NCBI GenBank assembly: GCA_020849295.1
Contig: JADLGN010000015.1
Coordinates: 91,168-155,167, forward strand
Direction: 5' to 3'
Length of the DNA: 64,000 nucleotides
Source: Bacteroidia bacterium
Lineage (GTDB): Bacteria; Bacteroidota; Bacteroidia; NS11-12g; UBA9320
The notes below the pieces were generated by a model, which was not told the DNA's origin, did not search any database, and worked only from the letters and a program-made list of their open reading frames with translations. Each line of letters opens with the position of its first letter. The first letter of the stretch is position 1. Both the position numbers and the translations under genes were made by a program. Below are positions 35,279-58,295 of the stretch, in pieces.

Positions 35279-35297
35279 TTAATAGGAGGACAAAATC

Positions 35298-36710: not shown

Positions 36711-36729
36711 TTTCTTGTTTATTAAGAAC

Positions 36730-36766
36730 AAAATCCCCAAAGGTTTTCTTTTGGGGATTTTTTTTT
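36730..36766 (+). terminator. Rho-independent terminator downstream of the SusD-like gene (stem aaaatccccaaa paired with tttggggatttt, followed by a T-run)
   Basis: A GC-cored 12-bp stem with a short loop is followed by TTTTTTTTT. Confidence 0.6.
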
Positions 36767-36801
36767 ATAACAATTCTTTTTTTTACTAAATTGCACATAA
36801 T

Positions 36802-43914: not shown

Positions 43915-43954
43915 AATAAAGTAGTAGAAAAAATTAATTTTTAAAAAAAAAGCT

Positions 43955-45256: not shown

Positions 45257-45261
45257 ATAAA

Positions 45262-46686
45262 ATGAGCAAATATTATCTTGGAGTTGACCTTGGCTCCACA
45301 ACATCAAAGTCAGTAATAATAAATGAACAAGACGAGATAATTGGAAGAGGAATTACAAATACTCGTGCAAATTACTCAGTAGCCGCTGATATAGCAAGGG
45401 ATGAAGCAACCTACAATGCAAGATTTTCAATATTAAAGAAAAATCTGGAAGACGAAATAGCTTCAAAGCCTGAATACAAAAAATATATTTCTGATTTAGA
45501 AAGCGTATTTCAATATGAGCAATTCAAAATAAAATTAGATAAACTTGGGGATGAGTTGGTAAAAACATGTAATAATTTTTTTAAAGATGATACTCAAAGA
45601 AATGAAATTTTAGTACATCTTAGAAATATTCGCAAAGCCTTTAAACCAAAGATTAAACATGATTATTTATATAATAATCTTGGAGAAAAAAATCAATTTT
45701 TCAGAGATATAGTTTCCGAAAAATATAATGAAGAAGTGAACAAACTCGAAATGGCATTATTCGAGCCATTAATGACGGTATGGGACAAAAGTATTTCGCC
45801 GGCAGAAAATGAAAGAATAAAATTTGATTTTAAAGAACTTGTTCATAAAGCAATGGAAGAATTAAAAGACAAATACAAGAATTTACCTGATACTGCAGCC
45901 GAAGGAGAGAGTATAAACTTTGACGCAGAGATGAATTTGCTTAAGGGAAATTTCGATCAGGTATCAGAAACTCTTCGTTCACACATTGACCATATTGCCG
46001 AACTTGAATTTCATATTGAAAACATGACAGGAACAGGCTATGGAAGAGCATTATTGCCATTTCCACAAGAATGTATCCGCTCAGAAATTTTGTGTCATGC
46101 ATTTGGAGCACATGCTGTTTTCCCTGATACAAGAACAGTTTTAGACATTGGAGGTCAGGATACAAAGGCAATTCAGGTAGATAAATACGGGCTTGTTACA
46201 TCATTTCAGATGAATGACCGCTGTGCGGCAGGCTGTGGAAGATATTTGGGATACATTGCAGATGAAATGAGCATTTCATTAAATGAATTAGGACCAATGG
46301 CAATGGAAGCACAAAAAGAAGTTAGTATTTGTTCTACATGTACAGTATTTGCCGGAGCAGAATTAAGAGAACTTACAAATCTTGGCGAAAAAAGAGAAGA
46401 TATTTTGGGAGGTTTACACAAAGCAATTATTATGCGTGCCATGTCGCTTATTGCACGTTCAGGAGGAGTCTTTAATGAATTTACATTTACCGGAGGAGTT
46501 GCAAGAAATCCGGCTGTTATAAAATATCTTACACAGCTTGTAAGAGATAATTACGGAAGCGATATAAAAATAAATATTCATACCGATTCTATATTTATGG
46601 GAGCCTTGGGAGGTGCAATGTTTGCCAGAAGAAATATTAATGTTGATTTGCCAAATGCCAAAAAAACACAAGAAGTAACACAATAA
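45262..46686 (+). CDS. BadF/BadG/BcrA/BcrD-type ATPase, large form (BcrA/alpha-like), with an internal K/E-rich helical insertion of about 200 aa
   Basis: Phosphate-1 is YYLGVDLGSTTSKSVII. Later blocks are TGTGYGR and DIGGQDTKAI. The cluster-ligand region is NDRCAAGCGRYLGY...ICSTCTVFAGAE. Confidence 0.75.
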   Translation: MSKYYLGVDLGSTTSKSVIINEQDEIIGRGITNTRANYSVAADIARDEATYNARFSILKKNLEDEIASKPEYKKYISDLESVFQYEQFKIKLDKLGDELVKTCNNFFKDDTQRNEILVHLRNIRKAFKPKIKHDYLYNNLGEKNQFFRDIVSEKYNEEVNKLEMALFEPLMTVWDKSISPAENERIKFDFKELVHKAMEELKDKYKNLPDTAAEGESINFDAEMNLLKGNFDQVSETLRSHIDHIAELEFHIENMTGTGYGRALLPFPQECIRSEILCHAFGAHAVFPDTRTVLDIGGQDTKAIQVDKYGLVTSFQMNDRCAAGCGRYLGYIADEMSISLNELGPMAMEAQKEVSICSTCTVFAGAELRELTNLGEKREDILGGLHKAIIMRAMSLIARSGGVFNEFTFTGGVARNPAVIKYLTQLVRDNYGSDIKINIHTDSIFMGALGGAMFARRNINVDLPNAKKTQEVTQ

Positions 46687-46701
46687 ATTAAAAAAAAAAT
46701 C

Positions 46702-47538
46702 ATGGAAAATTTTTATACTATGGGTATTGACGTAGGTTCTAATTTTATAAAATTAGTACTTATGGACTATTCAGATAATCCAAAATTATTAGATAAACAT
46801 ACTGAAAAAATAAGGAAACGCGACCCATCACAAGTTGCTGAAGAAATGACTCAAAATATGCTTGCCAAGCATAAATTGAAATATGAGGATATAGCTTATT
46901 TTGCTTCTACCGGAGAAGGAGATCTTGTAAAAAGAAAAAGAGGTCATTTTTATGGAATGACAACACATGCCAAAGGAGCACATTTTTTATATTCTGATGC
47001 AATAACTGTGGTAGATATGGGTGCACTTTATGTAAGAGCAATTAAAATATCTGATGATGCAAGAGTATATGATTATAAAATGACCGGACAATGTGCCTCA
47101 GGTTCGGGGCAGTTTGTTGAAAATATTTCACGATATCTAGGTCTGTCAATTGAAGAAGTTGGCGATGTTTCAATGCAATCAAAAAATCCAGAAGTTTCTT
47201 CAGGAATTTGTGCCGTACTTGCCGAAACTGACGTAATTAATATGGTTTCAAGAGGTATATCAACACCTGATATAATAAAGGGAATTCATATTTCAATTGC
47301 CAACAGAATACTTAAACTATTGAGTTCCCTTAAAGCAGAATCGCCTATAGTAGTTACAGGAGGAATGGCATTAAACAAAGGAATGATAGAAGCACTTGAA
47401 GAACAATTGCAGGAAATGGGAAAATCTTTCCAGATTAAATCTCATCCAGATGCAATATATGCAGGTGCTATAGGAGCAGCACTTTGGGGAGGATACAGAC
47501 ATATTAAGCTAAAAGAAAAGCAAGCAGTTCTTGCATAA
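46702..47538 (+). CDS. BadF/BadG/BcrA/BcrD-type ATPase, small form (BcrD/delta- or HgdC-like activase)
   Basis: Motifs are MGIDVGSNFIKLVLMD, TGQCASGSGQFVE, SSGICAVLAETD and VVTGGMALN. The length is 278 aa. Confidence 0.8.
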   Translation: MENFYTMGIDVGSNFIKLVLMDYSDNPKLLDKHTEKIRKRDPSQVAEEMTQNMLAKHKLKYEDIAYFASTGEGDLVKRKRGHFYGMTTHAKGAHFLYSDAITVVDMGALYVRAIKISDDARVYDYKMTGQCASGSGQFVENISRYLGLSIEEVGDVSMQSKNPEVSSGICAVLAETDVINMVSRGISTPDIIKGIHISIANRILKLLSSLKAESPIVVTGGMALNKGMIEALEEQLQEMGKSFQIKSHPDAIYAGAIGAALWGGYRHIKLKEKQAVLA

Positions 47539-47599: not shown

Positions 47600-49723
47600 A
47601 TGAGCGTACAAAATCAAACAATGAGTATTGAAACAAAAAAACATGAGTTGGATACTCTTTTTAAACCTAAATCAATAGCAATAATTGGAGCATCATCCAA
47701 AGAGCTTTCAATAGGAAATGTTATTATTAAAAATCTTGTTCATTTTAATTATACAGGGAAAATTTACCCAATAAACCCAAAAGAACCTGAAATAAGAGGA
47801 ATAAAAGCATATTCTACAATCTTTGAAGTCCCTGATGATATTGACCTAGCACACGTAATAATACCAAGCAAATTTGTGCCACAGATAATTGAGGATTGTG
47901 GAAAAAAGGGAATAAAATCAGTAATTATCAATTCTGCCGGTTTTAGCGAAATGGGTGATGAAGGTATGGCTTTACAAGAAGCATTTCTACAAAATGCAAA
48001 AAAATACGGAGTTAGAATTTTCGGACCAAATTGTCAGGGAATAATTAATTGCGACCCTGAGTATAATGCATATTGCGATTTTACATTTACATTTCCTAAT
48101 CCGGGCAGCATATCAATTGTAGCACTAAGCGGTGGTGTTGGTGCATTTATAATGCAAAGCCTTTTCGACCTTAATATAGGGATGAGAATGTATGCTTCTA
48201 ATGGTAATGCTTGCGATATTTCTATTTCTGAAGTTATAAAATACTACGGACAAGATGATGGAACTAAAGCAATTATTTTATATACCGAAGGTTTTCATAA
48301 ACCATTAGAATTTTTAAATACTGCAAAACTTGTTGCAAGAAAAAAACCAATTCTTGCAATGAAATCAGGAAGGACAGAAGCAGGAGCAAAAGCAGCAGCT
48401 TCACATACAGGAGCACTTGCAGGTATTGATATTTCTACTGAGTTAATATTTGAAAAAACAGGTGTGTTGTCATTCACAAATGAAGAAGAAATGTGTCAGG
48501 CAGCAATGGCTTTCTCTACACAACCAATTCCAAAGGGCAATAAAGTAGGTATAATTACAAATACAGGCGGACCTGCAGTAATTGCAACAGACGAACTAGT
48601 TAATTCAGGACTTGAGATTCCAGCTATATCAGCAAAAGCAGAAGAAATATTAAAAAATACATTGTTGCCTGAAGCCACAATAGGCAATCCGATTGATGTA
48701 GTTGCTACCGGCGGTGGAGTACATTTTAGAAGTGCACTTGATGTGCTGATGAATGAAAGTCAAATAGACAGTATTTTTATAAATTTTGTAACAGCACCAT
48801 TTACAGATACTGATGAGGTAGCAAGAAATATAGTAGAAGTAAATCAACTTAAGAAGAAACCAATAATTTGTAATTTTATGACAAATATGAGTTTTGAAAG
48901 ATTTCAAAAAACTGCCAAAATACTTCAGGATGGCGGTGTGCCATGTTATAGTTTTCCTACTACTGCAGCTAAAGCTCTTGGAGCATTATACAAATTTCAT
49001 AAAATTCAAAATAGAGAAATTGGCTTCCCTCAGCTTTTTAGGGATATAGACAAAAATACAGTTAAAGAAATTATTGAAAATTCAGCTATTAATGAATTTA
49101 TGTCTTCCGAGAAAGTTTTTAGTATTCTTAAAGCATACAATATTCCTATAGCAGACTGGGGAATAGCATCAAATATAGATACTGCCCATGAAATAGCATC
49201 AAAAATTTCATACCCAGTAGTAGTAAAAGCAGAGGCATCAGATATAATACACAAAAGCGATAAAGGAGGTGTGGCAGTAAATATTAAAAACCAAGCAGAA
49301 TTGATATCGACTATTGAAAATATGAAGAACAATTTTGATAATTCTGCTTTGAAATTTCTTATACAAAAATTTGAACCGGGAGGAAAAGAATTAATAATTG
49401 GAGTTACATCAAATGGAGATTTAGGGCATTTAATAATGTTTGGAATGGGAGGCATTTATGTAGAAATATTAAAAGATGTTGTTTTCAAATTAAGCCCCGT
49501 AACGCAAGTTGAAGCCGAAGAAATGCTATCAACAATTAAATCGTCAAAATTATTAGATGGAGTAAGAGGTCAACAAGGAATTGATAAAAAAAGAGTTATT
49601 GAAATAATTGAAAGGATATCTCAATTGGTAACAGATTTTCCTCAAATAAAAGAAATGGATTTAAATCCTGTAATGGCATTTTCAGATAGAGCTATTGCAG
49701 TTGATGCAAGAATTAAATTATAA
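47600..49723 (+). CDS. ADP-forming (NDP-forming) acyl-CoA synthetase with fused alpha and beta domains (CoA-binding + succinyl-CoA-synthetase-like + ATP-grasp)
   Basis: The N-terminal CoA-binding Rossmann region is SIAIIGASSKELSIGN. The CoA-ligase/flavodoxin-like middle contains a phosphohistidine loop (GAKAAASHTGALAG). The C-terminal ATP-grasp has YPVVVKAEASDIIHKSDKGGV. The length is 707 aa. Confidence 0.8.
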   Translation: MSVQNQTMSIETKKHELDTLFKPKSIAIIGASSKELSIGNVIIKNLVHFNYTGKIYPINPKEPEIRGIKAYSTIFEVPDDIDLAHVIIPSKFVPQIIEDCGKKGIKSVIINSAGFSEMGDEGMALQEAFLQNAKKYGVRIFGPNCQGIINCDPEYNAYCDFTFTFPNPGSISIVALSGGVGAFIMQSLFDLNIGMRMYASNGNACDISISEVIKYYGQDDGTKAIILYTEGFHKPLEFLNTAKLVARKKPILAMKSGRTEAGAKAAASHTGALAGIDISTELIFEKTGVLSFTNEEEMCQAAMAFSTQPIPKGNKVGIITNTGGPAVIATDELVNSGLEIPAISAKAEEILKNTLLPEATIGNPIDVVATGGGVHFRSALDVLMNESQIDSIFINFVTAPFTDTDEVARNIVEVNQLKKKPIICNFMTNMSFERFQKTAKILQDGGVPCYSFPTTAAKALGALYKFHKIQNREIGFPQLFRDIDKNTVKEIIENSAINEFMSSEKVFSILKAYNIPIADWGIASNIDTAHEIASKISYPVVVKAEASDIIHKSDKGGVAVNIKNQAELISTIENMKNNFDNSALKFLIQKFEPGGKELIIGVTSNGDLGHLIMFGMGGIYVEILKDVVFKLSPVTQVEAEEMLSTIKSSKLLDGVRGQQGIDKKRVIEIIERISQLVTDFPQIKEMDLNPVMAFSDRAIAVDARIKL

Positions 49724-49727
49724 AGAA

Positions 49728-50948
49728 ATGTATAAAATACAAAGTACAAAGGTGATGAAGGAAATAATGGGAAATTATTTCCTAGGTATGAAAGATAAAT
49801 CAAAAAAAATAGCATGGTGTACAAGCGTAGGACCAGCCGAACTTTTGCGTTCGTTTGGTTTTGAAGTACATTTTCCTGAAAATCATGGAGCATTGCTTGG
49901 TGCTACACGTACAGCAGGAGATTTAATACCCGAATCAGCAAAATTCGGTTATTCAAATGATATATGTTCTTATCTTACAGCCGATATAGGTTCATATCTG
50001 AAAAGTGAAACGCCACTTAAAGAACATTATGGTCTTGAAGGACCGCCCAAGCCCGATTTGATTGTTTATAACACAAACCAATGTAGAGAAGTACAGGATT
50101 GGTTTACATATTTTGGAAGAGAACTTAATGTGCCTGTTATCGGAATTTATCCACCAAGACATCTTGATGAAGTTACGGATGAAATAATAGAAGATGTTGC
50201 TACACAATTCAGAAAAATGATTCCGATATGCGAAGAAGTAAGCGGACAAAAATTTGATAATGATAAATTCAAAGCAACATTAAAACTAAGCAAAGAAGCA
50301 ACTGACTTATGGAAAAAAGTTCTTTATACTGCTACAAATACTCCGGCACCAATAAGCTTTTTTGATGCAACTATCCACATGGGACCTATAGTAGTTTTAC
50401 GCGGTACACAGCAAGCAAAAGACTATTATATTACATTGCTTAAAGAAATGGAAGAAAATGTAGAGAAAGGAATAGGATTTCTTGAAAAAGAAAAATGCCG
50501 ATTGTATTGGGATGGAATGCCAATTTGGGGCAAGTTGCGTTCATTATCTGACTTATTTGTTCAAAACAATACAGCAATAGTAGCTTCAACATATTGCAAT
50601 AGCTGGGTTTTTGATGCATTTGACGAAGAAAACCCATTTGAATCATCAGCTAAAGCATATACTGAAATTTTTATTAATAGAAGCGAAGAAGCTAAACAAA
50701 GACTTTTAACCGAGTTAATAGAAAAATTTAGGATAGATGGTGTGATTTTTCACGATGCTAAAACATGTGCAAACAATTCTAACTCAAGATTTGGAATGCC
50801 GCAAAGACTTACAGAATCAATAGGAATACCAACATTAATAATAGAAGGCGACCTATGTGATTTGAGATTTTATTCAGAAGGGCAAAGTATTACCAAAATT
50901 GAAACTTTTATTGAGCAAATTGAGAGTACAAAAATTTTAAGTAATTAA
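49728..50948 (+). CDS. Second BcrB/HgdA-type subunit, paralogous to 43955..45256. The ORF-track start at 49695 overlaps the upstream stop by 29 bp, so the ATG at 49728 (or 49755) is more likely the true start.
   Basis: KKIAWCTSVGPAELLRSFG and DICSYLTADIG align position-for-position with the 43955 protein. The blocks AIVASTY and TLIIEGDLCDLR are conserved. Confidence 0.7.
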   Translation: MYKIQSTKVMKEIMGNYFLGMKDKSKKIAWCTSVGPAELLRSFGFEVHFPENHGALLGATRTAGDLIPESAKFGYSNDICSYLTADIGSYLKSETPLKEHYGLEGPPKPDLIVYNTNQCREVQDWFTYFGRELNVPVIGIYPPRHLDEVTDEIIEDVATQFRKMIPICEEVSGQKFDNDKFKATLKLSKEATDLWKKVLYTATNTPAPISFFDATIHMGPIVVLRGTQQAKDYYITLLKEMEENVEKGIGFLEKEKCRLYWDGMPIWGKLRSLSDLFVQNNTAIVASTYCNSWVFDAFDEENPFESSAKAYTEIFINRSEEAKQRLLTELIEKFRIDGVIFHDAKTCANNSNSRFGMPQRLTESIGIPTLIIEGDLCDLRFYSEGQSITKIETFIEQIESTKILSN

Positions 50949-50960
50949 TATAATAAAGGT

Positions 50961-51416
50961 ATGGATACTGAAAACAAAAGTAAAGTTTATAAACTCACAG
51001 ACGGAAGTGAGGTAGATTCAAATCAAGTTGAAAAACTAATTCAGGACACATGCCATTACGTAAAATATGTTGTTATTAACCAAAATGATAAAAACGAAAA
51101 TGTAGCTTTTATTTTTCCCGATAAAAACCTTTACAACAATCCCGATTATCTTTTGGCACCTAATGACAATGAAGGTTGTTTTTGCCCACGAAACCTTGAT
51201 GAGCTTGGAAGATGTCTTACAGGGTGTATGAAAAAGGTTAATTTGAGTTTTGAAAATATTGAAGATAAATTTTCAAATGCAGTGATTTTATCAGGAGAAA
51301 ACGAAATAGAAAACGAAGTAGAAAAGTATAAGAATATTTTAAAAAATTCATTGGGGAATGAAATTTCAGATGATGAAGTATATTATATCAAAAACTTAAA
51401 GGAAAAAAAGAAGTAA
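50961..51416 (+). CDS. Hypothetical small cysteine-containing protein (C-x-C...C...C in EGCFCPRNLDELGRCLTGC)
   Basis: The 151-aa ORF is tightly packed between cluster genes (12 bp and 6 bp gaps). It has no signal peptide, and no family is recognised. Confidence 0.4.
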   Translation: MDTENKSKVYKLTDGSEVDSNQVEKLIQDTCHYVKYVVINQNDKNENVAFIFPDKNLYNNPDYLLAPNDNEGCFCPRNLDELGRCLTGCMKKVNLSFENIEDKFSNAVILSGENEIENEVEKYKNILKNSLGNEISDDEVYYIKNLKEKKK

Positions 51417-51422
51417 AAATTA

Positions 51423-53273
51423 ATGAAAAAATCATCAAAATTAAAAGTTGGTATTGTAGGAATAGGTCCGGTTGGGATGATAATGGCTGTAAAACTAAAT
51501 GAGGCAGGTTGTGAAGTGGCACTTTGCGATAAAGATGAATTTAAAGTAAAAAAAGTAAGAGAAAACGGAATAGTACTTGAAAATATTTATAATTCAACTA
51601 CAAAGTTTGAACATATTTACAATTCTGTAACAGAGATGAGAAAACTTGATTTGGATTATCTTGTTTTTGCATTAAAATCATATCAAACACTTGGAGCAGC
51701 AAAAGAAGCAGAAATTCTCAATTCTGAAAAACTTACAGTAATTGCAGCTCAAAACGGTATAGATACAGAACAAATACTTGCATCAGTTTTCGGTGAAAAT
51801 AAAACACTGAGAATGGTTATAAATTATGCAGGAAATCTTACATCGCCCAATACAGTTAAAGTAACTTTTTTTACCCCACCCAACTATATAGGTTCTATAG
51901 ACGACAGCATAACCGAACAATCAAAAATATTTACATCATTACTTAATGAAGTAAATTTTGAAACAGTTAATCTCAATTCGTTTGAAATACTAAAACGTAC
52001 TTGGGAGAAAACTATTTTGAATGCATCGTTAAGTCCACTGTGTGGGGTAGGAAGACTAACTATGGCAGAAGCAATGTCTGACCCTGAAACAGTTGAACTA
52101 GTTGAGCAAATTATAAATGAGGGAATAGAAGTAGCAGAAAGAGAAAAAATACGTTTCTCAGACGATTTTTATCGAAAATGCCTGCAATATTTAAAAAAAG
52201 GTGGAGAGCATTTCCCATCATTAGCAATAGATTTAATTAATAACCGCCAGACAGAAATTGATTATTTCAACGGAAAAATTGTAGAATATGGGAAAAAACA
52301 TTATGTAAAAACCTCATTGAATTTAGCATTTACAAACATGGTAAAAGCTATGACTAATAAAAACGTAATGAACAGGTCAATTGCTTCAGATGCAGTTTTA
52401 AACAAGAAAATAGTAAGTAAAGGTTTAATAGAAAAAAATAATTCCTCATTATATTATAAAGAGCAAAATTGTTTTCTGGGGATTGACCTTGGCTCAGCAT
52501 ATACCAAGTTTACAGTTATAAATGCAAAAGGGAAACCCGTATTCAGGTACTTTGTTCACACAATGAACAAAGACAGAAATGCTATGAAAAATGTAATTCA
52601 GGCTATATATTCAACATTTAATATTAAATACAGTTGCGCTACAGGTTATGGCAGAAAACACTTTACTGATACAGATATTATTAAAACCGAAATAAACTGT
52701 GCAGCTGCAGGAGTTGCAGAATATCACGATGGTGAAAAAAACATAATAGATATCGGTGGCGAAGATATAAAGGTTATACATTGTAATAATGATAATCAGG
52801 TTGCAAATTTTTACATGAATGATAAGTGTGCTGCCGGTACAGGTGCATTTTTACAGGAAATATCAGAAAGAGCAGAAATTAAAATTGAAGATATGAGCAG
52901 CCTTGCTTCACATTCTGATTTCGACAAAGAATTAAACAGCTTTTGTACTGTTTTTGCAAAAACTGAAATTATGAATTGGGTTTTTGACGGAATGCCAATG
53001 CAAGATATTGCAAGAGGTATTTATATATCAATAGCCAATAAAGTAGCAAAAATGAGATTAATACCGGGTTTGCCAATTATTATGATTGGTGGTGTAATTG
53101 CGCATCATCCTTATATGAGTACAATACTAAGCCAGAAATTTAATAAGGATATTAAAACCATTGAACACCCTCAGTTTGTTGTGTCACTTGGTGCTGCTAT
53201 AATTGCAAAACAAACATGGGCAAACGCAAATGAAAAAATTGATTTAAATAAAGAGATTAAACTACCAGCATAA
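51423..53273 (+). CDS. Fusion protein: an N-terminal ketopantoate-reductase-like (ApbA/PanE family) NAD(P)-binding 2-oxoacid reductase domain joined to a C-terminal BadF/BcrA/HgdC-type ATPase (activase) domain
   Basis: N-terminus: KVGIVGIGPVGMIMAVKLNEAGCEVALCD (Rossmann GxGxxG). The ApbA-like middle and C-terminal helical domain carry SLAIDLINNRQTEIDYFNG (ApbA E/N substrate block). C-terminal half from about aa 345: CFLGIDLGSAYTKFTVI, DIGGEDIKVI, DKCAAGTGAFLQEISE, NSFCTVFAKTEI. Confidence 0.7.
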   Translation: MKKSSKLKVGIVGIGPVGMIMAVKLNEAGCEVALCDKDEFKVKKVRENGIVLENIYNSTTKFEHIYNSVTEMRKLDLDYLVFALKSYQTLGAAKEAEILNSEKLTVIAAQNGIDTEQILASVFGENKTLRMVINYAGNLTSPNTVKVTFFTPPNYIGSIDDSITEQSKIFTSLLNEVNFETVNLNSFEILKRTWEKTILNASLSPLCGVGRLTMAEAMSDPETVELVEQIINEGIEVAEREKIRFSDDFYRKCLQYLKKGGEHFPSLAIDLINNRQTEIDYFNGKIVEYGKKHYVKTSLNLAFTNMVKAMTNKNVMNRSIASDAVLNKKIVSKGLIEKNNSSLYYKEQNCFLGIDLGSAYTKFTVINAKGKPVFRYFVHTMNKDRNAMKNVIQAIYSTFNIKYSCATGYGRKHFTDTDIIKTEINCAAAGVAEYHDGEKNIIDIGGEDIKVIHCNNDNQVANFYMNDKCAAGTGAFLQEISERAEIKIEDMSSLASHSDFDKELNSFCTVFAKTEIMNWVFDGMPMQDIARGIYISIANKVAKMRLIPGLPIIMIGGVIAHHPYMSTILSQKFNKDIKTIEHPQFVVSLGAAIIAKQTWANANEKIDLNKEIKLPA

Positions 53274-53280
53274 AAATATA

Positions 53281-54543
53281 ATGAGAGCATTTCACGACAA
53301 AGAAAAAGGTATAGGTATAATATTCGATGATATTTATTTTGTTAACGGAGCAAGAACTCCGTTTGGAAAATATTGCGGAACACTTGCAAATGTATCGCCT
53401 ACAGATTTAGGAATTTTTGCCAGTAAAGCAGCAATTAATAAAAGTAATATTTCAGCAGATAAAATTGACCAGGCAGTTATGGCAAATATTGGTCAGTCTT
53501 CAGGCGATGCATATTTTTTCCCTCGTCATGTTTCATTATTTGCAGGATTGCCGGTTACTGTACCTGCACTTATGGTTCAAAGAATATGTGCATCCGGATT
53601 TGAAACTATAATTACTTCTGCCGAGCAGATTACACTTGGCAAAGCCGATTCAACACTATGCTGCGGTGCAGAAAGTATGTCACTTTCACCAACCGTAAGT
53701 TTTGGCAACAGAATGGGTTATATGCTTGGTCGCCCTGTTTTTAAAGATATGCTTTGGGAAGCTTTAGACGATACCGCAGCAGGTTATCCAATGGGTTTTA
53801 CAGCAGAAAATATTGCAGTAAAGCACAATATTAGCAGGCAACAGTGTGACGAATATGCTCTAATATCTTTTAACAGAGCTATTGCAGCAAGAAACAAAGG
53901 ATTTTTTAATGAAGAAATTACACCTATCAATTCTACGGTATTTGAAGCAGATGGTTTAAAATCACGAAAAGTTAAACTAACTGGAGGAGTAAAAGATTTT
54001 AATATTGACGAACAAATAAGAGAAACCACATTAGAATCATTGTCAAAATTGCCAAATGTATTTAAAGAAGTAGGAGTACTGTCAGCTGGTAATTGCAGTG
54101 GCATTGTTGATGGAGCAGCAGCAGCAGTTGTAGCATCTGATAGTTTTGTAAAATCAAATAATTTAAAACCCCTTGCAAAAGTGGTAGCCGCTGCAACAAG
54201 TGCAATAGACCCTAAAGTAATGGGGCTGGGTCCGGTACCTGCTATTAAATATTTATTGGAAATTACAGGTTTAAAAATTGATGATATCGGATTGTTTGAG
54301 ATTAATGAAGCATTTTCATCACAGGTAATAGGCTGCGAAATAGAATTAGGACTTGATAGGAATAAACTTAATGTAAATGGTGGTGCAATTGCTATCGGAC
54401 ATCCGCTTGCAGCAAGCGGCTTAAGACTTTCGCTAACACTTATTAGAGAAATGAATCAAAAAAATATAAAATACGGAATTGCTTCTGCTTGTATAGGTGG
54501 CGGACAAGGTACAGCAATTCTTTTTGAAAATTTAAATAATTAA
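53281..54543 (+). CDS. Acetyl-CoA C-acyltransferase (thiolase)
   Basis: NGARTPFGKY with the active-site Cys in RICASGFETI, the motifs NEAFSSQV and GHPLAASG, and the C-terminal CIGGGQGTA are present. Confidence 0.9.
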   Translation: MRAFHDKEKGIGIIFDDIYFVNGARTPFGKYCGTLANVSPTDLGIFASKAAINKSNISADKIDQAVMANIGQSSGDAYFFPRHVSLFAGLPVTVPALMVQRICASGFETIITSAEQITLGKADSTLCCGAESMSLSPTVSFGNRMGYMLGRPVFKDMLWEALDDTAAGYPMGFTAENIAVKHNISRQQCDEYALISFNRAIAARNKGFFNEEITPINSTVFEADGLKSRKVKLTGGVKDFNIDEQIRETTLESLSKLPNVFKEVGVLSAGNCSGIVDGAAAAVVASDSFVKSNNLKPLAKVVAAATSAIDPKVMGLGPVPAIKYLLEITGLKIDDIGLFEINEAFSSQVIGCEIELGLDRNKLNVNGGAIAIGHPLAASGLRLSLTLIREMNQKNIKYGIASACIGGGQGTAILFENLNN

Positions 54544-54730: not shown

Positions 54731-55789
54731 ATGCAAAATACTAAAATGTATAAATGGGAAATGATAGAAACTGACAAAGATTTTGTCAGAAAAGAATGTG
54801 ATATTCCTGAAATTGAAGAAAATGAAGCAATAGTAAAAGTTGCAGGATGTGGTGTGTGTCATACAGATTTAAGTTTTTGGCATTTTGGAGTACAAACCAA
54901 AAAATCTTTACCCCTTACTTTAGGACACGAAATAAGCGGAACAGTTGTAGTAGGAGATAGTAGTATTATTGGAAAAAATGTAATTATACCTGCTGTATTG
55001 CCTTGTGGCAACTGCGAATTGTGTAATAATGGAAGAAGTAATATTTGTCGCAATCAACTTATGCCCGGTAATGATTTTGACGGAGGATTTGCATCTCATA
55101 TCAAAGTACCATCAAAATATTTGTGTGAAGTAGATAATGAAATATTGAAAAAATACCCATTAGAAACACTTTCTGTAATTGCTGATGCTATTTCTACACC
55201 TTATCAGGTTGTAAAAAAATCAGAATTGAAAGAAGGAGATTTTGCTATTGTGATTGGAGTGGGCGGTGTAGGAATTTACGGGGCACAAATAGCAAAAATA
55301 TTTGGAGCAAAAGTTCTTGCAATGGATATTAGTGATGAAAAACTAAATGTTGCAAAAGAAAATGGAACAGATGCAGTTTTGAACATAAAAGGAATGGATA
55401 TAAAAACTGTAAAAGAAAATGTTAAAAATATTGCTAAAGAACTTAATGCACCAAAAAATAGTTGGAAAATTTATGAAATATCGGGAACCAAAGCAGGCCA
55501 AGAACTCGCTTTTAATCTTATAACTTTTGCTTCTACATTATCAGTTGTAGGTTTTACAATGGATAAAGTAGATGTAAGACTTAGTAATCTTATGGCATTT
55601 GATGCAAAATTGATTGGCACTTGGGGATGTAAGCCAGAACTATACCCTGAAGTTGTTAAATTGGTATCAGACGGTAAATTAAAAATTGAACCTTTTATTC
55701 AAACATTTCCCTTGTCTCAAATTAATGAAGTATTTAAAAACACATTAGAACATAAATATTCAAAGCGCTCAGTACTTATTCCCGATTAA
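54731..55789 (+). CDS. Zinc-dependent medium-chain dehydrogenase/reductase (ADH_N + Rossmann), a candidate beta-hydroxyacyl-CoA / 6-hydroxycyclohexenoyl-CoA-type dehydrogenase (Had-like)
   Basis: Catalytic Zn ligands are present (GCGVCHTDL, GHE in TLGHEISG). Structural Zn cysteines are CGNCELCNNGRSNIC. The Rossmann motif is VIGVGGVGIYG. Confidence 0.85.
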   Translation: MQNTKMYKWEMIETDKDFVRKECDIPEIEENEAIVKVAGCGVCHTDLSFWHFGVQTKKSLPLTLGHEISGTVVVGDSSIIGKNVIIPAVLPCGNCELCNNGRSNICRNQLMPGNDFDGGFASHIKVPSKYLCEVDNEILKKYPLETLSVIADAISTPYQVVKKSELKEGDFAIVIGVGGVGIYGAQIAKIFGAKVLAMDISDEKLNVAKENGTDAVLNIKGMDIKTVKENVKNIAKELNAPKNSWKIYEISGTKAGQELAFNLITFASTLSVVGFTMDKVDVRLSNLMAFDAKLIGTWGCKPELYPEVVKLVSDGKLKIEPFIQTFPLSQINEVFKNTLEHKYSKRSVLIPD

Positions 55790-55799
55790 TAAAAAAAAT

Positions 55800-56882
55800 A
55801 TGCTTAAAAACCACAATATAACAGAAGTTTCTTATAAAGAAATACTATTCGAAAAAAGACCATGTCTAGATAAAAACGGACAGGCAATAGATGGATTATA
55901 CAACTCATGGATTTGCTTAAATAATCCAAAACAATACAACTCCTACACAACACAAGCTGTAAAAGAAATTATTCTTGCTTTTGGCGAAGCTTCAAACGAT
56001 CGCAGTATAGTTGCAGTTGTTTTTACGGCGGTAGAAGATAAAGCATTTTGTACAGGAGGCAATACAAAAGAATATGCAGAGTATTACTCTGGCAATCCGC
56101 AAGAATACAGCCAGTATATGCGACTATTTAATGACATGGTAAGTGCAATATTAAAATGCGAAAAACCTGTAATTTGCAGAGTAAACGGCATGAGAATAGG
56201 AGGAGGACAGGAAATAGGTATGGCTTGCGATTATACTATATCAAGTGATTTGGCTAGATTTGGTCAGGCAGGACCAAAACATGGTAGTGCAGCAATAGGC
56301 GGTGCTACAGATTTTCTTCATCTATATGTAGGTATAGAAAGAGCAATGATGTCATTAACACTTTGTGAACCTTGGACTGCTCATCAGGCATACAATTTTG
56401 GAATGATAACTGATATTGTACCTGCTCTTAAGCTTGACGGTAAATTTATACCCAACCCATTGGTAGTTTTAGATAAACAAACAGATGAGTTTGGAAAAAT
56501 AGTTTTTGGTACAATGAAAAAAGGTGATGAATTGAAAGCCGGAAAAGAAATAATGGAAAAATCGGAAATAGATTTATCAGAACTTGACAAAGCTGTAAAT
56601 AATCTTATTGCAAAACTTCTTTATACGTTCCCTAATTGTTTATCAAAAACTCTTACAGAAGTAAGAAAGAAAAAACTTGAGCATTGGGATAAAAATAAAG
56701 AAAGCAGCCGCGAATGGCTTGCTCTAAATATGATGACTGAAGCAAAAGCAGGGTTTAGAGCATTTAATTTTGGGCCAAAAGACAACAGAGAAGTTGATTT
56801 TATACTTTTAAGGCAACTTCTTGCCGAGGGTCATGAATGGAATGAAGAACTTCATCAAAAAATTTCACCTCAATATAAATAA
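55800..56882 (+). CDS. Crotonase-fold (enoyl-CoA hydratase/isomerase superfamily) protein, long form of 360 aa. It is a candidate ring-cleaving 6-oxocyclohexenoyl-CoA hydrolase (Oah/BamA-like).
   Basis: The oxyanion-hole blocks are AFCTGGNTKEY and ICRVNGMRIGGGQEIGMACDYTISS. Its length matches the approximately 370-380 aa Oah class rather than 260-aa hydratases. Confidence 0.7.
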   Translation: MLKNHNITEVSYKEILFEKRPCLDKNGQAIDGLYNSWICLNNPKQYNSYTTQAVKEIILAFGEASNDRSIVAVVFTAVEDKAFCTGGNTKEYAEYYSGNPQEYSQYMRLFNDMVSAILKCEKPVICRVNGMRIGGGQEIGMACDYTISSDLARFGQAGPKHGSAAIGGATDFLHLYVGIERAMMSLTLCEPWTAHQAYNFGMITDIVPALKLDGKFIPNPLVVLDKQTDEFGKIVFGTMKKGDELKAGKEIMEKSEIDLSELDKAVNNLIAKLLYTFPNCLSKTLTEVRKKKLEHWDKNKESSREWLALNMMTEAKAGFRAFNFGPKDNREVDFILLRQLLAEGHEWNEELHQKISPQYK

Positions 56883-57655
56883 TGGAAAAAATAAAAGTTA
56901 ATTATTTGTATGAAAATACTGTAGTTCAAATTGTGATGGACGATGGTAAAGGTAATATTTTGGATTCTGTAATGATGAAAGAACTAACAAACTTACTTGA
57001 TAGTTTTAAAACAAATAATAATCTGAAATTAATAATTTTTGAAGGAGCAGGCAAACACTATTCGTTTGGTGCAAGTGTAGAAGAGCATAAAAAAGACGAA
57101 GCTGCTCAAATGCTTAAATCATTTCATAACTTATTTTATTTGTTAATAGAATTGTCAATTCCAACCTTATCAAAAGTTAGTGGACAGTGCCTTGGAGGAG
57201 GAATGGAACTTGCCATTATGTGCAATTTTATTTATGCTGATAATACAGCAAAATTAGGACAACCCGAAATTGTTCTCGGAGTTTTTCCACCCCCTGCTTC
57301 ACTTATTTTACCTCAAAAAATTGGTCAAGCTCAAGCTGATGAATTATTATTGACAGGTAAATCAATAAACGCACAACAAGCAAAATCAATAAATTTAATT
57401 AATGAAATTTTTGAAAGCAAAGAAGAACTTCAAAATGGGTTAAACTCATTTATTGAAAATCAAATTTTACCAAAAAGTGCTTCATCACTACGTTTTGCAG
57501 TAAAAGCAGCAAGAAAAACTTTTAATAAAATATTGCTTGAAAATCTCCCTCAATTAGAAGAAATGTATGTTTCACAATTGATGAACACCAATGATGCTAA
57601 TGAAGGTATAAATTCTTTTCTCGAAAAACGCAAACCTGTTTGGGTTGGATCGTAG
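56882..57655 (+). CDS. Enoyl-CoA hydratase (crotonase family, canonical about 260 aa); Dch-like candidate
   Basis: IIFEGAGKHYSFGASVEEH and SKVSGQCLGGGMELAIMCNFIYA match the crotonase A-x-x-G-x-D and GGG-x-E motifs. The start overlaps the upstream stop by 1 bp. Confidence 0.8.
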   Translation: MEKIKVNYLYENTVVQIVMDDGKGNILDSVMMKELTNLLDSFKTNNNLKLIIFEGAGKHYSFGASVEEHKKDEAAQMLKSFHNLFYLLIELSIPTLSKVSGQCLGGGMELAIMCNFIYADNTAKLGQPEIVLGVFPPPASLILPQKIGQAQADELLLTGKSINAQQAKSINLINEIFESKEELQNGLNSFIENQILPKSASSLRFAVKAARKTFNKILLENLPQLEEMYVSQLMNTNDANEGINSFLEKRKPVWVGS

Positions 57656-57719: not shown

Positions 57720-58295
57720 TTACTTATTCCCTTTTTTCAATATATCTTTATAATAAGGGTTATCTTCTTTCATTTCCATTCGCAATTCATCGCACAAGTA
57801 CCAGTATTCGCCAAGTTTTAGTGCTACAAATTTTATGGTAAATTCTTTTTTTGATTTGCTGCAATAAAGTGAGATATATGAAAAATTTACACCTTTTTCA
57901 TCTTTGCCTTCACGGGTTTTTATTTCATTAAGGTTACATGTTTTAAATTTTATTCCATTTTTTCTTGCGTATATTTTCATTGCTTTATATTGCTTTCGCA
58001 ATCTGTATGAAATATAATTATGTTTAATTTTAAGAATTTGCGGGTTGTTTTTTAATTCAAGCGAATCAAAAGTTATTTTAAGAGATTCTAAGCTAGGTAA
58101 AAGACTGTAAAATTGTTCGTCAGTTTTTTGTTTTAATGCTTGCCAAACAGTGTCAGCAAGATTTTCGGGGCTTGAAGTTTTCCATTTCTTTTCATTAGTA
58201 TTAATTGAATCAGTTTGTTCTGTCTGAGCAATACAAAAATTTGACACTATAATAAATGTAAAAAAGAAAAAAGGTTTTCTAAATTTAAAATTCAT
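57720..58295 (-). CDS. Hypothetical exported protein. The start was adjusted to the internal Met (MNFKFRK) to avoid a 34-bp overlap with the upstream gene.
   Basis: A signal-peptide-like N-terminus is present (FFFFTFIIVSNFCIAQT). No family is assigned. Confidence 0.4.
   Translation of the reverse strand: MNFKFRKPFFFFTFIIVSNFCIAQTEQTDSINTNEKKWKTSSPENLADTVWQALKQKTDEQFYSLLPSLESLKITFDSLELKNNPQILKIKHNYISYRLRKQYKAMKIYARKNGIKFKTCNLNEIKTREGKDEKGVNFSYISLYCSKSKKEFTIKFVALKLGEYWYLCDELRMEMKEDNPYYKDILKKGNK

What the first reader, a model, noticed from the sequence alone, without database searches (positions are those of the whole stretch)
51423..53273. Apparently novel fusion of a ketopantoate-reductase-like NAD(P) 2-oxoacid reductase domain to a radical-enzyme activase ATPase domain
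The first approximately 330 residues have the ApbA/PanE architecture: an N-terminal GxGxxG Rossmann domain, VGIVGIGPVGMIMAVKL, and a helical C-terminal domain carrying the conserved E/N substrate block. The last approximately 270 residues are a complete BadF/BcrA/HgdC-type ATPase with both cluster cysteines (DKCAAGTG, NSFCTV). ApbA-family members include D-2-hydroxyacid dehydrogenases that make the 2-hydroxy acids consumed by 2-hydroxyacyl-CoA dehydratases. The fusion could therefore couple substrate formation to activase function. Alternatively the NAD(P) domain could gate or deliver electrons to the ATPase cluster. I know of no such domain combination.
Basis: partly seen in the sequence, partly recalled or inferred. 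Interest (0 to 1): 0.85.

Follow-up and report, generated by a model that had tools for sequence, protein, structure and literature searches.

The report
Dehydrogenase fused to radical-enzyme activase
This is a real, widely conserved gene in uncultured Bacteroidota that joins a 2-oxoacid reductase to the ATP-driven activator of a neighbouring radical dehydratase; it probably helps feed aromatic amino acids into the oxygen-free benzoyl-CoA breakdown pathway, and databases mislabel it as a vitamin B5 enzyme.

Summary
ORF 51423-53273 (+, 616 aa) carries ApbA + ApbA_C (residues 9-310), a ~40-residue linker, and a complete HgdC/HadI-type activase (352-595) with both cluster cysteines. It is not a frameshift. 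More than 120 full-length homologues were found, and it occurs in at least 80 species-level genomes, all MAGs of Bacteroidota and allies. An independently fused short-linker form occurs in Marinimicrobia.

In related genomes the two halves are adjacent, separate genes in the same order, so this is a fusion of operon neighbours. The linker is modelled as flexible. No flavin or electron-gating device is apparent.

The gene always sits in one conserved cluster: bcrCBAD, acyl-CoA ligase, a single HadB-like protein, the fusion, thiolase, had, oah, dch.

Best reading: the N-half makes an (R)-2-hydroxy acid, the ligase makes its CoA ester, and the HadB-like enzyme, switched on by the C-half, dehydrates it to an enoyl-CoA. 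The substrate is most plausibly arylpyruvate from Phe/Tyr, giving benzoyl-CoA after beta-oxidation. The substrate is inferred, not shown.

The architecture is present in databases, annotated as "2-dehydropantoate 2-reductase", but I found no paper describing it. It is a new variant of a known kind, of moderate interest.

The parts
51423..53273 (+). Fusion gene (616 aa): KPR-family D-2-hydroxyacid dehydrogenase domain + HgdC/HadI-type activase domain; identical to MCC6721377.1
51447..51896 (+). Rossmann NAD(P)-binding domain (residues 9-158). G13-x-G15-P-x-G18 is invariant. Asp36 at the end of beta-2 aligns with the Asp of the 2ew2/8wl1 proteins, which suggests NADH.
51987..52352 (+). Helical ApbA_C domain (residues 189-310). 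Invariant Lys196, Asn200, Ser266, Glu278 and Asp280, together with Asn111 in the N-domain, match the catalytic/substrate residues of ketopantoate reductases and D-mandelate dehydrogenases.
52353..52475 (+). Inter-domain linker (residues 311-351). It has a low-confidence stretch at 312-322, then a helix at 320-334. The motif NKKIxxKGLVxK is conserved only in the main Bacteroidota clade. It is 32 columns shorter in the Marinimicrobia fusion.
52476..53207 (+). Activase (archerase) domain, residues 352-595. It has the ASKHA ATP motifs GIDLGS (352-357), DIGGED (443-448) and IGGV (555-558), and the cluster ligands Cys469 and Cys508.
49695..50948 (+). Single HGD-D family protein (417 aa), the presumed partner of the activase. 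It is closest to HadB, the alpha subunit of 2-hydroxyisocaproyl-CoA dehydratase (3o3m_A, E 4e-51), then to MbdO. It has seven near-invariant Cys. No beta-subunit gene is present.
50961..51416 (+). 151-aa ORF: a free-standing homologue of the C-terminal domain of the AMP-forming ligase that occupies the ligase slot in other genomes. It has a conserved Cys pattern and is found only with the ADP-forming ligase.
47600..49723 (+). ADP-forming (NDP-forming) acyl-CoA ligase, fused alpha/beta, 707 aa. It is the presumed CoA activation step. In other genomes an AMP-forming ligase takes its place.
53281..54543 (+). Thiolase (acetyl-CoA C-acyltransferase), immediately downstream of the fusion.
42751..47538 (+). 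bcrC, bcrB, bcrA, bcrD: Thauera-type class I benzoyl-CoA reductase.
   Evidence: BcrC, BcrB and BcrD score above the NCBIfam equivalog cut-offs; BcrA scores below
54731..57655 (+). had (6-hydroxycyclohex-1-ene-1-carbonyl-CoA dehydrogenase), oah (6-oxocyclohex-1-ene-1-carbonyl-CoA hydrolase) and dch (dienoyl-CoA hydratase-like).

Best explanation
The gene encodes a genuine bifunctional protein made by fusing two neighbouring operon genes.

The N-terminal half is a catalytically intact ketopantoate-reductase-family enzyme. It reduces a 2-oxo acid to the (R)/D-2-hydroxy acid. In this protein the cofactor is probably NADH.

The C-terminal half is an HgdC/HadI-type activase. By analogy with solved relatives it is expected to be a homodimer sharing one [4Fe-4S] cluster. 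It would use ATP hydrolysis to inject one low-potential electron into the HadB-like protein encoded just upstream.

Together with the ligase these genes form a four-step module: 2-oxo acid, then (R)-2-hydroxy acid (N-half), then 2-hydroxyacyl-CoA (ligase), then (E)-2-enoyl-CoA (HadB-like enzyme, switched on by the C-half).

The module is embedded in a complete benzoyl-CoA pathway cluster. In relatives it is accompanied by a FadB-like hydratase/dehydrogenase, thiolase(s), a HisC-type aminotransferase and a 4-hydroxybenzoyl-CoA-reductase-like enzyme. The most likely substrates are therefore phenylpyruvate and 4-hydroxyphenylpyruvate from Phe and Tyr. These would give cinnamoyl-/4-coumaroyl-CoA, which beta-oxidation converts to (4-hydroxy)benzoyl-CoA plus acetyl-CoA.

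The two halves most likely act independently on a flexible tether. The fusion would secure co-expression or co-localisation rather than create a new mechanism.

What is shown: domain identities, intact active-site residues, authenticity, conservation, gene context, and the existence of split forms. What is inferred: the enzymatic activities, dehydratase rather than reductase chemistry, and the aromatic substrate.

My confidence is about 0.7 for the generic module and about 0.45 for the aromatic substrate.
For: Domains and cut-offs.

Active-site conservation across 21 fused proteins down to 37% identity. In the KPR half: G13/G15/G18, K85, N111, K196, N200, S266, E278, D280. In the activase half: D355, G357, D443-E447, C469, C508, G556-G557.

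Closest solved relatives:
- N-half: 2ew2 and the D-mandelate dehydrogenases 3wfi/5x20/8wl1, by sequence and by fold (TM-score up to 0.86-0.90 on the target).
- C-half: HadI 4eht (6e-38) and HgdC 1hux.
- Upstream protein: HadB 3o3m_A (4e-51).

Context in 80 species genomes:
- HadB-like gene within 700 bp upstream in 66 of 71 loci.
- Complete bcrCBAD in 47 of 51 loci.
- A ligase in 62 of 64 loci.
- had + oah in 50 of 59 loci.
- Thiolase in 44 of 59 loci.

Split KPR and activase genes in the same order and the same cluster: L006, L007, L089, L090. Overlapping stop/start in L089.

At least two independent fusions, in the Bacteroidota clade and in Marinimicrobia.

Hints at an aromatic amino-acid substrate:
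- HisC-family aminotransferase next to the fusion in L004, L031, L036.
- 4-hydroxybenzoyl-CoA reductase-like enzyme in L007, L088, L089, L091 and six GTDB loci.
- FadB-like gene directly after the fusion in many loci.
- Peptidases and a SusCD-peptidase M2 locus in the window.

Structure model: both domains are confident, the linker is not, and pTM is 0.58.

Established knowledge: every characterised 2-hydroxyacyl-CoA dehydratase pathway combines a D-2-hydroxyacid dehydrogenase, a CoA-activation step, the dehydratase and an ATP-dependent activator, and acts on (R)-2-hydroxyacyl-CoA (PMC11971306, introduction).
Against: - No biochemical data exist for any member.
- Canonical dehydratases are alpha/beta heterodimers. 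Here there is only one HGD-D gene, and it also resembles the BCR active-site subunits MbdO and BcrB. Reductase chemistry is therefore not excluded.
- Known dehydratase pathways use a CoA-transferase, not an ATP-dependent ligase.
- The single ligase in the cluster could instead be the benzoate-CoA ligase, which would leave the module without a CoA-activation step.
- The window itself has no FadB-like gene and no aminotransferase next to the cluster. An aminotransferase is adjacent in only 3 of 80 loci.
- FadB-like and thiolase genes are also needed for the lower benzoyl-CoA pathway, so they do not point specifically to cinnamoyl-CoA.
- Recurrent independent fusion hints at some advantage of physical linkage that my 'independent halves' view does not explain.
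Confidence: 0.6

Rival explanations
1. The HadB/BcrB-like protein plus the activase domain form an ATP-dependent reductase, like class I BCR or the double-cubane cluster protein system. It would act stoichiometrically on an aromatic or unsaturated CoA ester. The KPR domain would then reduce a keto group in that pathway.
For: The HGD-D protein also scores against BcrB (157 bits) and MbdO (1.8e-34). It shares extra conserved Cys with them: C42 with BcrB and MbdO, C179 with MbdO. It has seven invariant Cys, which recalls the seven-Cys double-cubane proteins; those are homodimers served by a homodimeric activase (PMC7317905). It lies inside a BCR cluster in every locus.
Against: It scores best against the dehydratase alpha subunit HadB (225 vs 157 vs 63 bits; 177 vs 122 bits). 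The activase half is closest to dehydratase activators. The cluster already has a complete bcrCBAD. KPR-family enzymes act on free 2-oxo acids, and all residues for that chemistry are invariant. A 2-oxoacid reductase has an obvious role in a dehydratase pathway and none in a ring reductase.
Confidence: 0.15
2. It is the same dehydratase-type module but acts on a non-aromatic 2-oxo acid. Examples are 2-oxoglutarate to (R)-2-hydroxyglutaryl-CoA to glutaconyl-CoA, linking to the glutaryl-/glutaconyl-CoA end of the benzoyl-CoA pathway in either direction, or 2-oxoisocaproate from leucine.
For: HadB and HadI (isocaproate system) and HgdC (glutarate system) are the closest solved relatives. Glutaconyl-CoA is an intermediate of the lower benzoyl-CoA pathway in strict anaerobes (PMC13416013, section 4.2.4). 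korAB (2-oxoacid:ferredoxin oxidoreductase) is often in the cluster. The ADP-forming ligase is closest to hydroxy-acid CoA ligases.
Against: No glutaconyl-CoA decarboxylase or glutaryl-CoA dehydrogenase was seen in any cluster examined. The closest solved relatives of the KPR half act on an aromatic 2-oxo acid. AMP-forming and ADP-forming ligases are interchangeable in the slot, which argues for the direction acid to CoA ester rather than for a reverse, ATP-yielding route. The strict association with aromatic-ring genes, including 4-HBCR-like enzymes, would be unexplained.
Confidence: 0.15
3. One reading: the NAD(P) domain gates the activase or supplies electrons to its [4Fe-4S] cluster, so the fusion creates a new coupled device.
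For: The fusion arose at least twice. In the main clade the linker carries a conserved motif and a predicted helix, so some advantage of physical linkage is possible.
Against: Split-gene versions work in the same cluster in related organisms. The Marinimicrobia fusion has almost no linker and P0124 has a different one. No flavin or extra Fe-S motif is present to turn a hydride into single electrons. From established knowledge, activases of this family are reduced by ferredoxin or flavodoxin at potentials below the NAD(P)H couple. The inter-domain geometry is not confidently predicted (pTM 0.58).
Confidence: 0.07
4. The database annotation is right: the N-half is the housekeeping ketopantoate reductase (PanE) of pantothenate synthesis, fused by chance to an activase.
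For: TIGR00745 apbA_panE scores above its cut-off. All public copies are named 2-dehydropantoate 2-reductase. A type III pantothenate kinase gene lies about 10 kb upstream.
Against: TIGR00745 is a subfamily model. Every PanE equivalog model scores far below its cut-off, for example 106.5 vs 500 and 103.7 vs 252. The gene position inside the aromatic cluster, next to the HadB-like gene, is conserved in 80 species and in the split-gene forms. The closest structures are D-mandelate dehydrogenases.
Confidence: 0.03

Closest known systems
Activators of 2-hydroxyacyl-CoA dehydratases (HadI of Clostridioides difficile, 4eht; HgdC of Acidaminococcus fermentans, 1hux)
   Same: The C-half matches over its full length (E 6e-38 and 2e-34). 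It has the same ASKHA ATP motifs and the same two cluster cysteines (Cys469 and Cys508 correspond to HgdC Cys127 and Cys166). It lies next to an HGD-D family partner gene.
   Different: It is fused to an N-terminal 340-residue dehydrogenase. The partner is a single HadB-like protein, not an alpha/beta pair. The host is FCB-group bacteria rather than Clostridia, and the setting is a benzoyl-CoA reductase cluster.
D-mandelate dehydrogenases of the ketopantoate reductase family (Enterococcus 3wfi/3wfj/5x20; Lactobacillus brevis 8wl1) and the E. faecalis protein 2ew2
   Same: They are the best sequence and fold matches of the N-half (E 2e-22 to 1e-17; about 25% identity). The Lys/Asn/Glu active-site residues are the same, and there is an Asp at the end of beta-2 as in these proteins. 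D-mandelate dehydrogenase is an NADH enzyme.
   Different: Identity is only about 25%, so the substrate cannot be transferred. Those enzymes are stand-alone proteins with no link to radical dehydratases.
Clostridial 2-hydroxyacyl-CoA dehydratase pathways (Fld phenyllactate, Had 2-hydroxyisocaproate, Hgd 2-hydroxyglutarate)
   Same: The logical set of functions is the same: 2-oxoacid reductase giving the (R)-hydroxy acid, CoA activation, an HGD-D family dehydratase, and an ATP-dependent activator.
   Different: The reductase comes from the KPR family rather than the D-isomer-specific 2-hydroxyacid dehydrogenase family. An ATP-dependent ligase (ADP- or AMP-forming) replaces the CoA-transferase. 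There is one dehydratase gene instead of two, with seven conserved Cys. The product is presumably oxidised onward to benzoyl-CoA rather than reduced as in Stickland fermentation.
Known activase ('archerase') fusions: long proteins joining activase domains to HGD-D catalytic domains
   Same: The activase domain sits in a multidomain polypeptide. Such proteins of 600-1500 aa are the commonest distant hits of the C-half, and they are described in PMC7317905.
   Different: Those fusions join the activase to its electron-accepting partner. Here it is joined to a different enzyme of the same pathway, and the partner remains a separate gene.
Thauera-type class I benzoyl-CoA reductase clusters (bcrCBAD, dch, had, oah, korAB)
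   Same: The surrounding genes match the equivalog models for BcrC, BcrB, BcrD, Had and Oah. korAB is present in many relatives.
   Different: As far as I know, described clusters of Thauera, Rhodopseudomonas and Aromatoleum have no KPR/HadB-like/activase module. The fusion's activase half is not a BcrA or BcrD (88 vs 578 bits and 65 vs 313 bits).

Membership tests
Ketopantoate reductase / ApbA-PanE superfamily (PF02558 + PF08546) | N-terminal Rossmann domain with GxGxxG followed by the helical ApbA_C domain | tested here: met
   Pfam 76.2 and 101.2 bits against cut-offs of about 22. The model superposes on KPR and D-ManDH structures with TM-score up to 0.90 on the target.
Ketopantoate reductase / ApbA-PanE superfamily (PF02558 + PF08546) | Catalytic Lys and Glu plus substrate-binding Asn/Ser (E. 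coli PanE Lys176, Glu256, Asn98; numbering from memory) | tested here: met
   K196, E278, N111, N200 and S266 are invariant in 21 sequences down to 37% identity. They align with the WxK...N and TEID..NG blocks of 2ew2 and 8wl1.
PanE proper (2-dehydropantoate 2-reductase, equivalog level) | Score above the NCBIfam equivalog cut-off; role in pantothenate synthesis | tested here: not met
   All equivalog models score far below cut-off (106.5 vs 500; 103.7 vs 252; 80.6 vs 360). The genomic context is aromatic catabolism.
HgdC/HadI-type activase (BcrAD_BadFG, TIGR00241) | Complete ASKHA ATPase core with phosphate-1, phosphate-2 and adenosine motifs | tested here: met
   PF01869 is matched over positions 1-271 of 271. 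TIGR00241 scores 171 bits against a cut-off of 125. GIDLGS, DIGGED and IGGV are invariant.
HgdC/HadI-type activase (BcrAD_BadFG, TIGR00241) | Two cysteines per monomer that bind the [4Fe-4S] cluster bridging the homodimer | tested here: met
   C469 and C508 are invariant and align with HgdC C127 and C166. Cluster binding and dimerisation themselves cannot be tested here.
HgdC/HadI-type activase (BcrAD_BadFG, TIGR00241) | Encoded next to an HGD-D family electron-acceptor protein | tested here: met
   An HGD-D gene lies within 700 bp upstream in 66 of 71 loci.
Class I benzoyl-CoA reductase ATPase subunits (BcrA/BcrD, BzdQ/P) | Equivalog-level match; part of the heterotetramer | tested here: not met
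   BcrA 88.3 vs 578 bits, BcrD 64.8 vs 312.85, BzdQ 93.9 vs 380. Separate bona fide bcrA and bcrD genes lie upstream.
2-hydroxyacyl-CoA dehydratase system (HAD) | Heterodimeric alpha/beta dehydratase, i.e. two HGD-D genes | tested here: not met
   There is only one HGD-D gene in the module in every locus examined. It is alpha-like (HadB 225 bits vs HadC 23 bits).
2-hydroxyacyl-CoA dehydratase system (HAD) | CoA-transferase supplying the 2-hydroxyacyl-CoA | tested here: not met
   No CoA-transferase was found in any cluster. An ADP-forming (24 loci) or AMP-forming (38 loci) ligase occupies the slot.
2-hydroxyacyl-CoA dehydratase system (HAD) | Catalytic (sub-stoichiometric) activation and dehydration of an (R)-2-hydroxyacyl-CoA | not testable with these tools
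   This requires anoxic enzymology.

The most novel reading that the evidence does not exclude
FCB-group bacteria (Bacteroidota, Ignavibacteria/Chlorobiota relatives, Marinimicrobia) of oxygen-poor waters and sediments have an undescribed, redox-neutral route from Phe/Tyr to (4-hydroxy)benzoyl-CoA. The route runs arylpyruvate, (R)-aryllactate, aryllactyl-CoA, cinnamoyl-/coumaroyl-CoA, then beta-oxidation. It would be built around a new single-subunit, seven-cysteine member of the BCR/HAD radical-enzyme family. Its activase has repeatedly become fused to the pathway's KPR-type dehydrogenase. A free-standing, Cys-rich ligase C-domain (the 151-aa ORF) may act as an accessory subunit.
Probability: 0.35. 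Interest if true: 0.7.

Novelty: new variant of a known kind. Interest (0 to 1): 0.5.

Why it matters
If the reading is right, it matters in four ways.

1. It corrects a systematic mis-annotation. Hundreds of database entries are called ketopantoate reductase but are bifunctional dehydrogenase-activases.

2. It gives the first example I could find of an 'archerase' fused to an enzyme other than its electron acceptor.

3. It points to a single-polypeptide, seven-Cys relative of the 2-hydroxyacyl-CoA dehydratase and benzoyl-CoA reductase catalytic subunits. That would be a simpler model for ketyl-radical enzymology.

4. It suggests that abundant, uncultured protein-degrading Bacteroidota and Marinimicrobia in anoxic lake water, groundwater, sediments and wastewater can mineralise aromatic amino acids through an ATP-dependent benzoyl-CoA pathway, by a route not described for the classical denitrifying or phototrophic model organisms.

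Tried and rejected
- Frameshift or assembly artefact: rejected.
- tRNA scan of the window: none found.
- Sigma-70 promoter and intrinsic terminator scan of 41.5-58.5 kb: counts equal the shuffled expectation, so it gives no information on operon boundaries.
- Six literature searches combining benzoyl-CoA reductase, Bacteroidetes, ketopantoate reductase, activator, fusion, Pfam accessions and phenyllactyl-CoA: no description of this architecture or cluster. One 2026 paper only hypothesises a phenyllactyl-CoA to cinnamoyl-CoA to benzoyl-CoA route in another organism.
- Locus L059, where the fusion lacks the upstream genes: its neighbours were uninformative.
- L005, the 38%-identical fusion in a ribosomal/NifU context: it gave no functional clue.
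- PDB searches with both ligase types: they did not identify a substrate class with any confidence.
- The structure model: it did not give a confident inter-domain arrangement (pTM 0.58). The tool returns no coordinates, so I could not test whether the extra Cys of the HadB-like protein cluster in space.
- I considered the ADP-forming ligase as an ATP-yielding acetyl-CoA synthetase. I rejected this because an AMP-forming ligase replaces it in the same slot.
Full report
**Observation.** The window contains a single uninterrupted ORF at 51423-53273 on the + strand (ATG start, 616 aa). Pfam finds ApbA (residues 9-158), ApbA_C (189-310) and a full-length BcrAD_BadFG ATPase domain (352-595, profile positions 1-271 of 271). 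E-values range from 1e-21 to 1e-37. NCBIfam places the N-half in the apbA_panE subfamily (161.6 bits, cut-off 141) and the C-half in 'acyl-CoA dehydratase activase' TIGR00241 (171 bits, cut-off 125). The description is accurate.

**Authenticity.** The protein is identical to NCBI MCC6721377.1, 'MAG: 2-dehydropantoate 2-reductase [Bacteroidia bacterium]', on a 182-kb contig. The word-indexed search returned more than 120 clusters of full-length proteins (598-634 aa, 66-98% identity). All carry the same three Pfam domains and come from independent assemblies at NCBI, JGI, ENA and Logan. A scan of one genome per GTDB species returned 80 loci with the uninterrupted gene, and the cap on returned loci was reached. 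They are all MAGs: Flavobacteriales (Vicingaceae, Crocinitomicaceae, Parvicellaceae), Chitinophagales (Saprospiraceae, Lewinellaceae, Chitinophagaceae), Cytophagales, Sphingobacteriales, one Ignavibacteria, one Chlorobiota, and one bin labelled Competibacteraceae. A sequencing or assembly frameshift is excluded.

**Anatomy of the N-half.** In an alignment of 21 fused proteins down to 37% identity, the following residues are invariant: the dinucleotide fingerprint G13-x-G15-P-x-G18, K85, Q110-N111-G112, W194, K196, N200, S266, T277-E278-I279-D280 and N283-G284. These include the Lys, Glu and Asn residues that align with the conserved WxK...N and TEID..NG blocks of solved family members. The domain is therefore under selection as an enzyme. 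In this protein the residue at the end of beta-2 is Asp36. It aligns with the Asp of 2ew2 and 8wl1, which suggests NADH. Other family members have Arg-Asn there, so cofactor preference may vary.

**Anatomy of the C-half.** The ATP motifs are invariant: G353-x-D355-L-G357, D443-I-G-G-E447 and G556-G557-V558. So are C469 and C508. Counting along the HMMER alignment, these two cysteines correspond to Cys127 and Cys166 of HgdC.

**Linker and structure model.** Between the halves lie about 40 residues. An AlphaFold2 model built from the 21-sequence alignment has mean pLDDT 83.4. It has pLDDT below 50 at residues 312-322, a helix at 320-334, and pTM of only 0.58. This means two well-folded domains with no confidently fixed mutual orientation. 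Foldseek against the PDB matches each half separately. The N-half matches D-mandelate dehydrogenases and ketopantoate reductases. The C-half matches HadI, HgdC, MbdQ and the activase of the double-cubane cluster protein. No entry covers both halves.

**Context in the window.** All of the following genes lie on the + strand with short gaps:
- bcrC, bcrB, bcrA, bcrD (42751-47538)
- an ADP-forming acyl-CoA ligase (47600-49723)
- one HGD-D family protein (49695-50948)
- a 151-aa ORF (50961-51416)
- the fusion (51423-53273)
- a thiolase (53281-54543)
- had, oah and a dch-like hydratase (54731-57655)

BcrC, BcrB, BcrD, Had and Oah exceed their NCBIfam equivalog cut-offs. This is a Thauera-type class I benzoyl-CoA reductase pathway. 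T9SS-sorted proteins and a SusC/SusD pair confirm a Bacteroidota host.

**Context in relatives.** I searched the 80 species loci with tblastn using the window's proteins and those of a 68%-identical relative. The results were:
- HGD-D gene within 700 bp upstream, on the same strand, in 66 of 71 loci with enough flank; two more have one gene in between.
- Complete bcrCBAD in 47 of 51 loci.
- A ligase in 62 of 64 loci: 24 ADP-forming and 38 AMP-forming.
- had + oah in 50 of 59 loci.
- Thiolase in 44 of 59 loci.
- A FadB-like hydratase/dehydrogenase in 38 of 59 loci, often directly after the fusion.
- korAB frequently present.

An aminotransferase of the HisC family follows the fusion in L004, L036 and L031. 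A molybdoenzyme whose best NCBIfam match is 4-hydroxybenzoyl-CoA reductase (798 bits, against 544 for XdhA, but below the equivalog cut-off) is in or beside the cluster in L007, L088, L089, L091 and six GTDB loci.

**Split genes and repeated fusion.** A full HMMER search of 1.84 billion cluster representatives found only three representative clusters of the fused architecture at 50% clustering. It also found stand-alone N-half-like (49%, 44% and 41% identity) and C-half-like (53%) proteins. Their loci show the same cluster with two separate adjacent genes in the same order:
- L006: ligase, HGD-D, KPR (326 aa), activase (254 aa).
- L007: the same four genes followed by thiolase, had, oah, dch, a FadB-like gene and a 4-HBCR-like gene.
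- L089: marine Flavobacteriales; stop and start codons overlap.
- L090: with bcrCBAD and a MarR gene.

A rough neighbour-joining tree puts the main Bacteroidota fusions in one clade, with split forms just outside. A 569-aa fusion with almost no linker comes from Candidatus Marinimicrobia (MBT5777556.1 and others) and groups with a split form. A 38%-identical fusion with yet another linker is the most divergent. The fusion therefore arose at least twice from neighbouring genes.

**The partner protein.** The 417-aa HGD-D protein is closest to HadB, the substrate-binding alpha subunit of 2-hydroxyisocaproyl-CoA dehydratase (NCBIfam 225 bits; PDB 3o3m_A, E 4e-51). It is next closest to the BCR active-site subunits (BcrB 157 bits; MbdO 1.8e-34), and only distantly related to the double-cubane protein. 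No second (beta, BcrC-like) gene accompanies it in any locus. Across 72 homologues it has seven near-invariant cysteines: C42, C91, C130, C179, C301, C358 and C388. Three of them (C91, C130, C358) are shared with HadB, MbdO, BzdO and BcrB. C42 is shared with BcrB and MbdO, and C179 with MbdO. C301 and C388 are unique to this family. This remains unexplained. The extra cysteines might bind a second cluster that stands in for the missing subunit.

**Mechanism proposed.** Every characterised 2-hydroxyacyl-CoA dehydratase pathway uses four functions: a D-2-hydroxyacid dehydrogenase, a CoA-activation step, the dehydratase, and an ATP-dependent activator. The activator injects one electron that is then recycled over many turnovers (PMC11971306). 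The four adjacent genes here supply exactly these functions, with two substitutions. A KPR-family reductase replaces the usual dehydrogenase family. Its closest solved relatives are D-mandelate dehydrogenases, so the D/(R) stereochemistry needed by such dehydratases is expected. An ATP-dependent ligase replaces the CoA-transferase, which makes sense if the product stays a CoA ester.

Which 2-oxo acid is used is an inference. The invariable embedding in an aromatic-ring cluster, the beta-oxidation genes, the occasional HisC-type aminotransferase, the 4-HBCR-like enzymes, the aromatic substrate of the closest KPR relatives, and the peptidase-rich host all point to phenylpyruvate and 4-hydroxyphenylpyruvate. 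The proposed route is arylpyruvate, (R)-aryllactate, aryllactyl-CoA, cinnamoyl-/coumaroyl-CoA, 3-hydroxy- then 3-oxo-arylpropionyl-CoA, and finally (4-hydroxy)benzoyl-CoA plus acetyl-CoA. That sequence is redox-neutral: one NADH is consumed and one is produced. A 2026 paper considers the same chemistry hypothetically for a benzene degrader (PMC13416013). I found no paper showing it, or describing this gene architecture.

**Why fused?** The split forms show that the two activities do not need to be on one chain. KPR domains carry no flavin, so hydride-to-single-electron delivery to the cluster is chemically implausible. I therefore regard the halves as independent catalysts on a tether. Recurrent fusion still suggests some benefit. 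Possibilities include fixed stoichiometry, assembly near the dehydratase, or stabilisation of the cluster-bridged dimer. I could not test any of these.

**Comparison with what is known, and novelty.** The parts belong to known families (see the membership table). The system works like a clostridial 2-hydroxyacyl-CoA dehydratase pathway, but it fails two defining features of that family: it lacks an alpha/beta heterodimer and it lacks a CoA-transferase. It also sits in a different metabolic setting and phylum. Published activase fusions are to the catalytic HGD-D partner (PMC7317905), not to a dehydrogenase. The architecture exists in databases under a misleading name. I rate it a new variant of a known kind. 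It is of moderate interest for the fusion itself, and of higher interest if the aromatic amino-acid route and the single-subunit seven-Cys enzyme are confirmed.

Noticed in passing
window 50961-51416 (+); also L008-L087: The 151-aa ORF has no Pfam hit. It is homologous to the C-terminal domain of the AMP-forming ligase of related clusters (36% identity, E 4e-28), starting exactly at the ANL hinge (…SRKDRIFKL). It keeps a conserved Cys pattern (C-H-Y … GCFCPR … LGxCLxGC). It accompanies 23 of 24 ADP-forming-ligase clusters and none of 38 AMP-forming ones. The ligase C-domain therefore survived as a separate gene after the ligase was replaced, which implies a role beyond adenylate chemistry.
   Followed up: partly
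window 49695-50948 (+): The single HadB/BcrB-like protein has seven near-invariant cysteines in 72 homologues. Only three of them are the conserved cluster ligands of HadB. No beta-subunit gene is present in any locus. It may be a single-polypeptide, two-cluster member of the BCR/HAD family.
   Followed up: partly
window 47600-49723 (+) versus L001 7039-8796 and 38 other loci: The ligase slot between bcrD and the HGD-D gene is filled by either an ADP-forming (NDP-forming, fused alpha/beta) or an AMP-forming (ANL) acyl-CoA ligase. This is a non-homologous replacement at a fixed position.
   Followed up: partly
L088 320-2029 (Candidatus Marinimicrobia; MBT5777556.1 family): An independently fused KPR-activase of 569 aa with almost no linker lies next to had/oah/dch, a thiolase and a 4-hydroxybenzoyl-CoA-reductase-like enzyme. 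This suggests benzoyl-CoA-type metabolism in marine SAR406 relatives.
   Followed up: partly
L007 17237-20804; L089 12116-15779; L091 12110-14938; L018, L021, L032, L064, L070, L087: Xanthine-dehydrogenase-family molybdoenzymes occur in or beside the cluster. Their best match is 4-hydroxybenzoyl-CoA reductase (alpha subunit 798 bits, below the 995-bit equivalog cut-off), often with the Fe-S subunit fused to the Mo subunit.
   Followed up: partly
L001 14025-14438; L007 5063-5581 (-); L089 15779-16264: Bacteriohemerythrin genes lie inside or next to several of these clusters of oxygen-sensitive enzymes. They may have an O2-sensing or O2-scavenging role.
   Followed up: no
window 32135-38625 (+): A SusC-like TonB-dependent receptor and a SusD-like lipoprotein are followed by a peptidase M2 (angiotensin-converting-enzyme-like). 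This looks like a PUL-type locus for peptides rather than polysaccharides. A prolyl oligopeptidase (13461-15509) and a tail-specific protease (25564-27645) are also in the window.
   Followed up: no
window 45262-46686 (+): BcrA is 474 aa and scores below the BcrA equivalog cut-off (438.5 vs 578 bits), while BcrB, BcrC and BcrD pass theirs. The ATPase alpha subunit of this Bacteroidota BCR is the most divergent part.
   Followed up: no
window 58295-60391 (-), 39376-40707 (-), 57720-58328 (-): ORFs of 698, 443 and 202 aa have no Pfam or NCBIfam match at the thresholds used.
   Followed up: no
L059 10001-13115; L061: In two Bacteroidota MAGs the fusion and the thiolase occur as an isolated pair, without the HGD-D, ligase or bcr genes nearby. 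The partner genes may lie elsewhere or may have been lost.
   Followed up: partly
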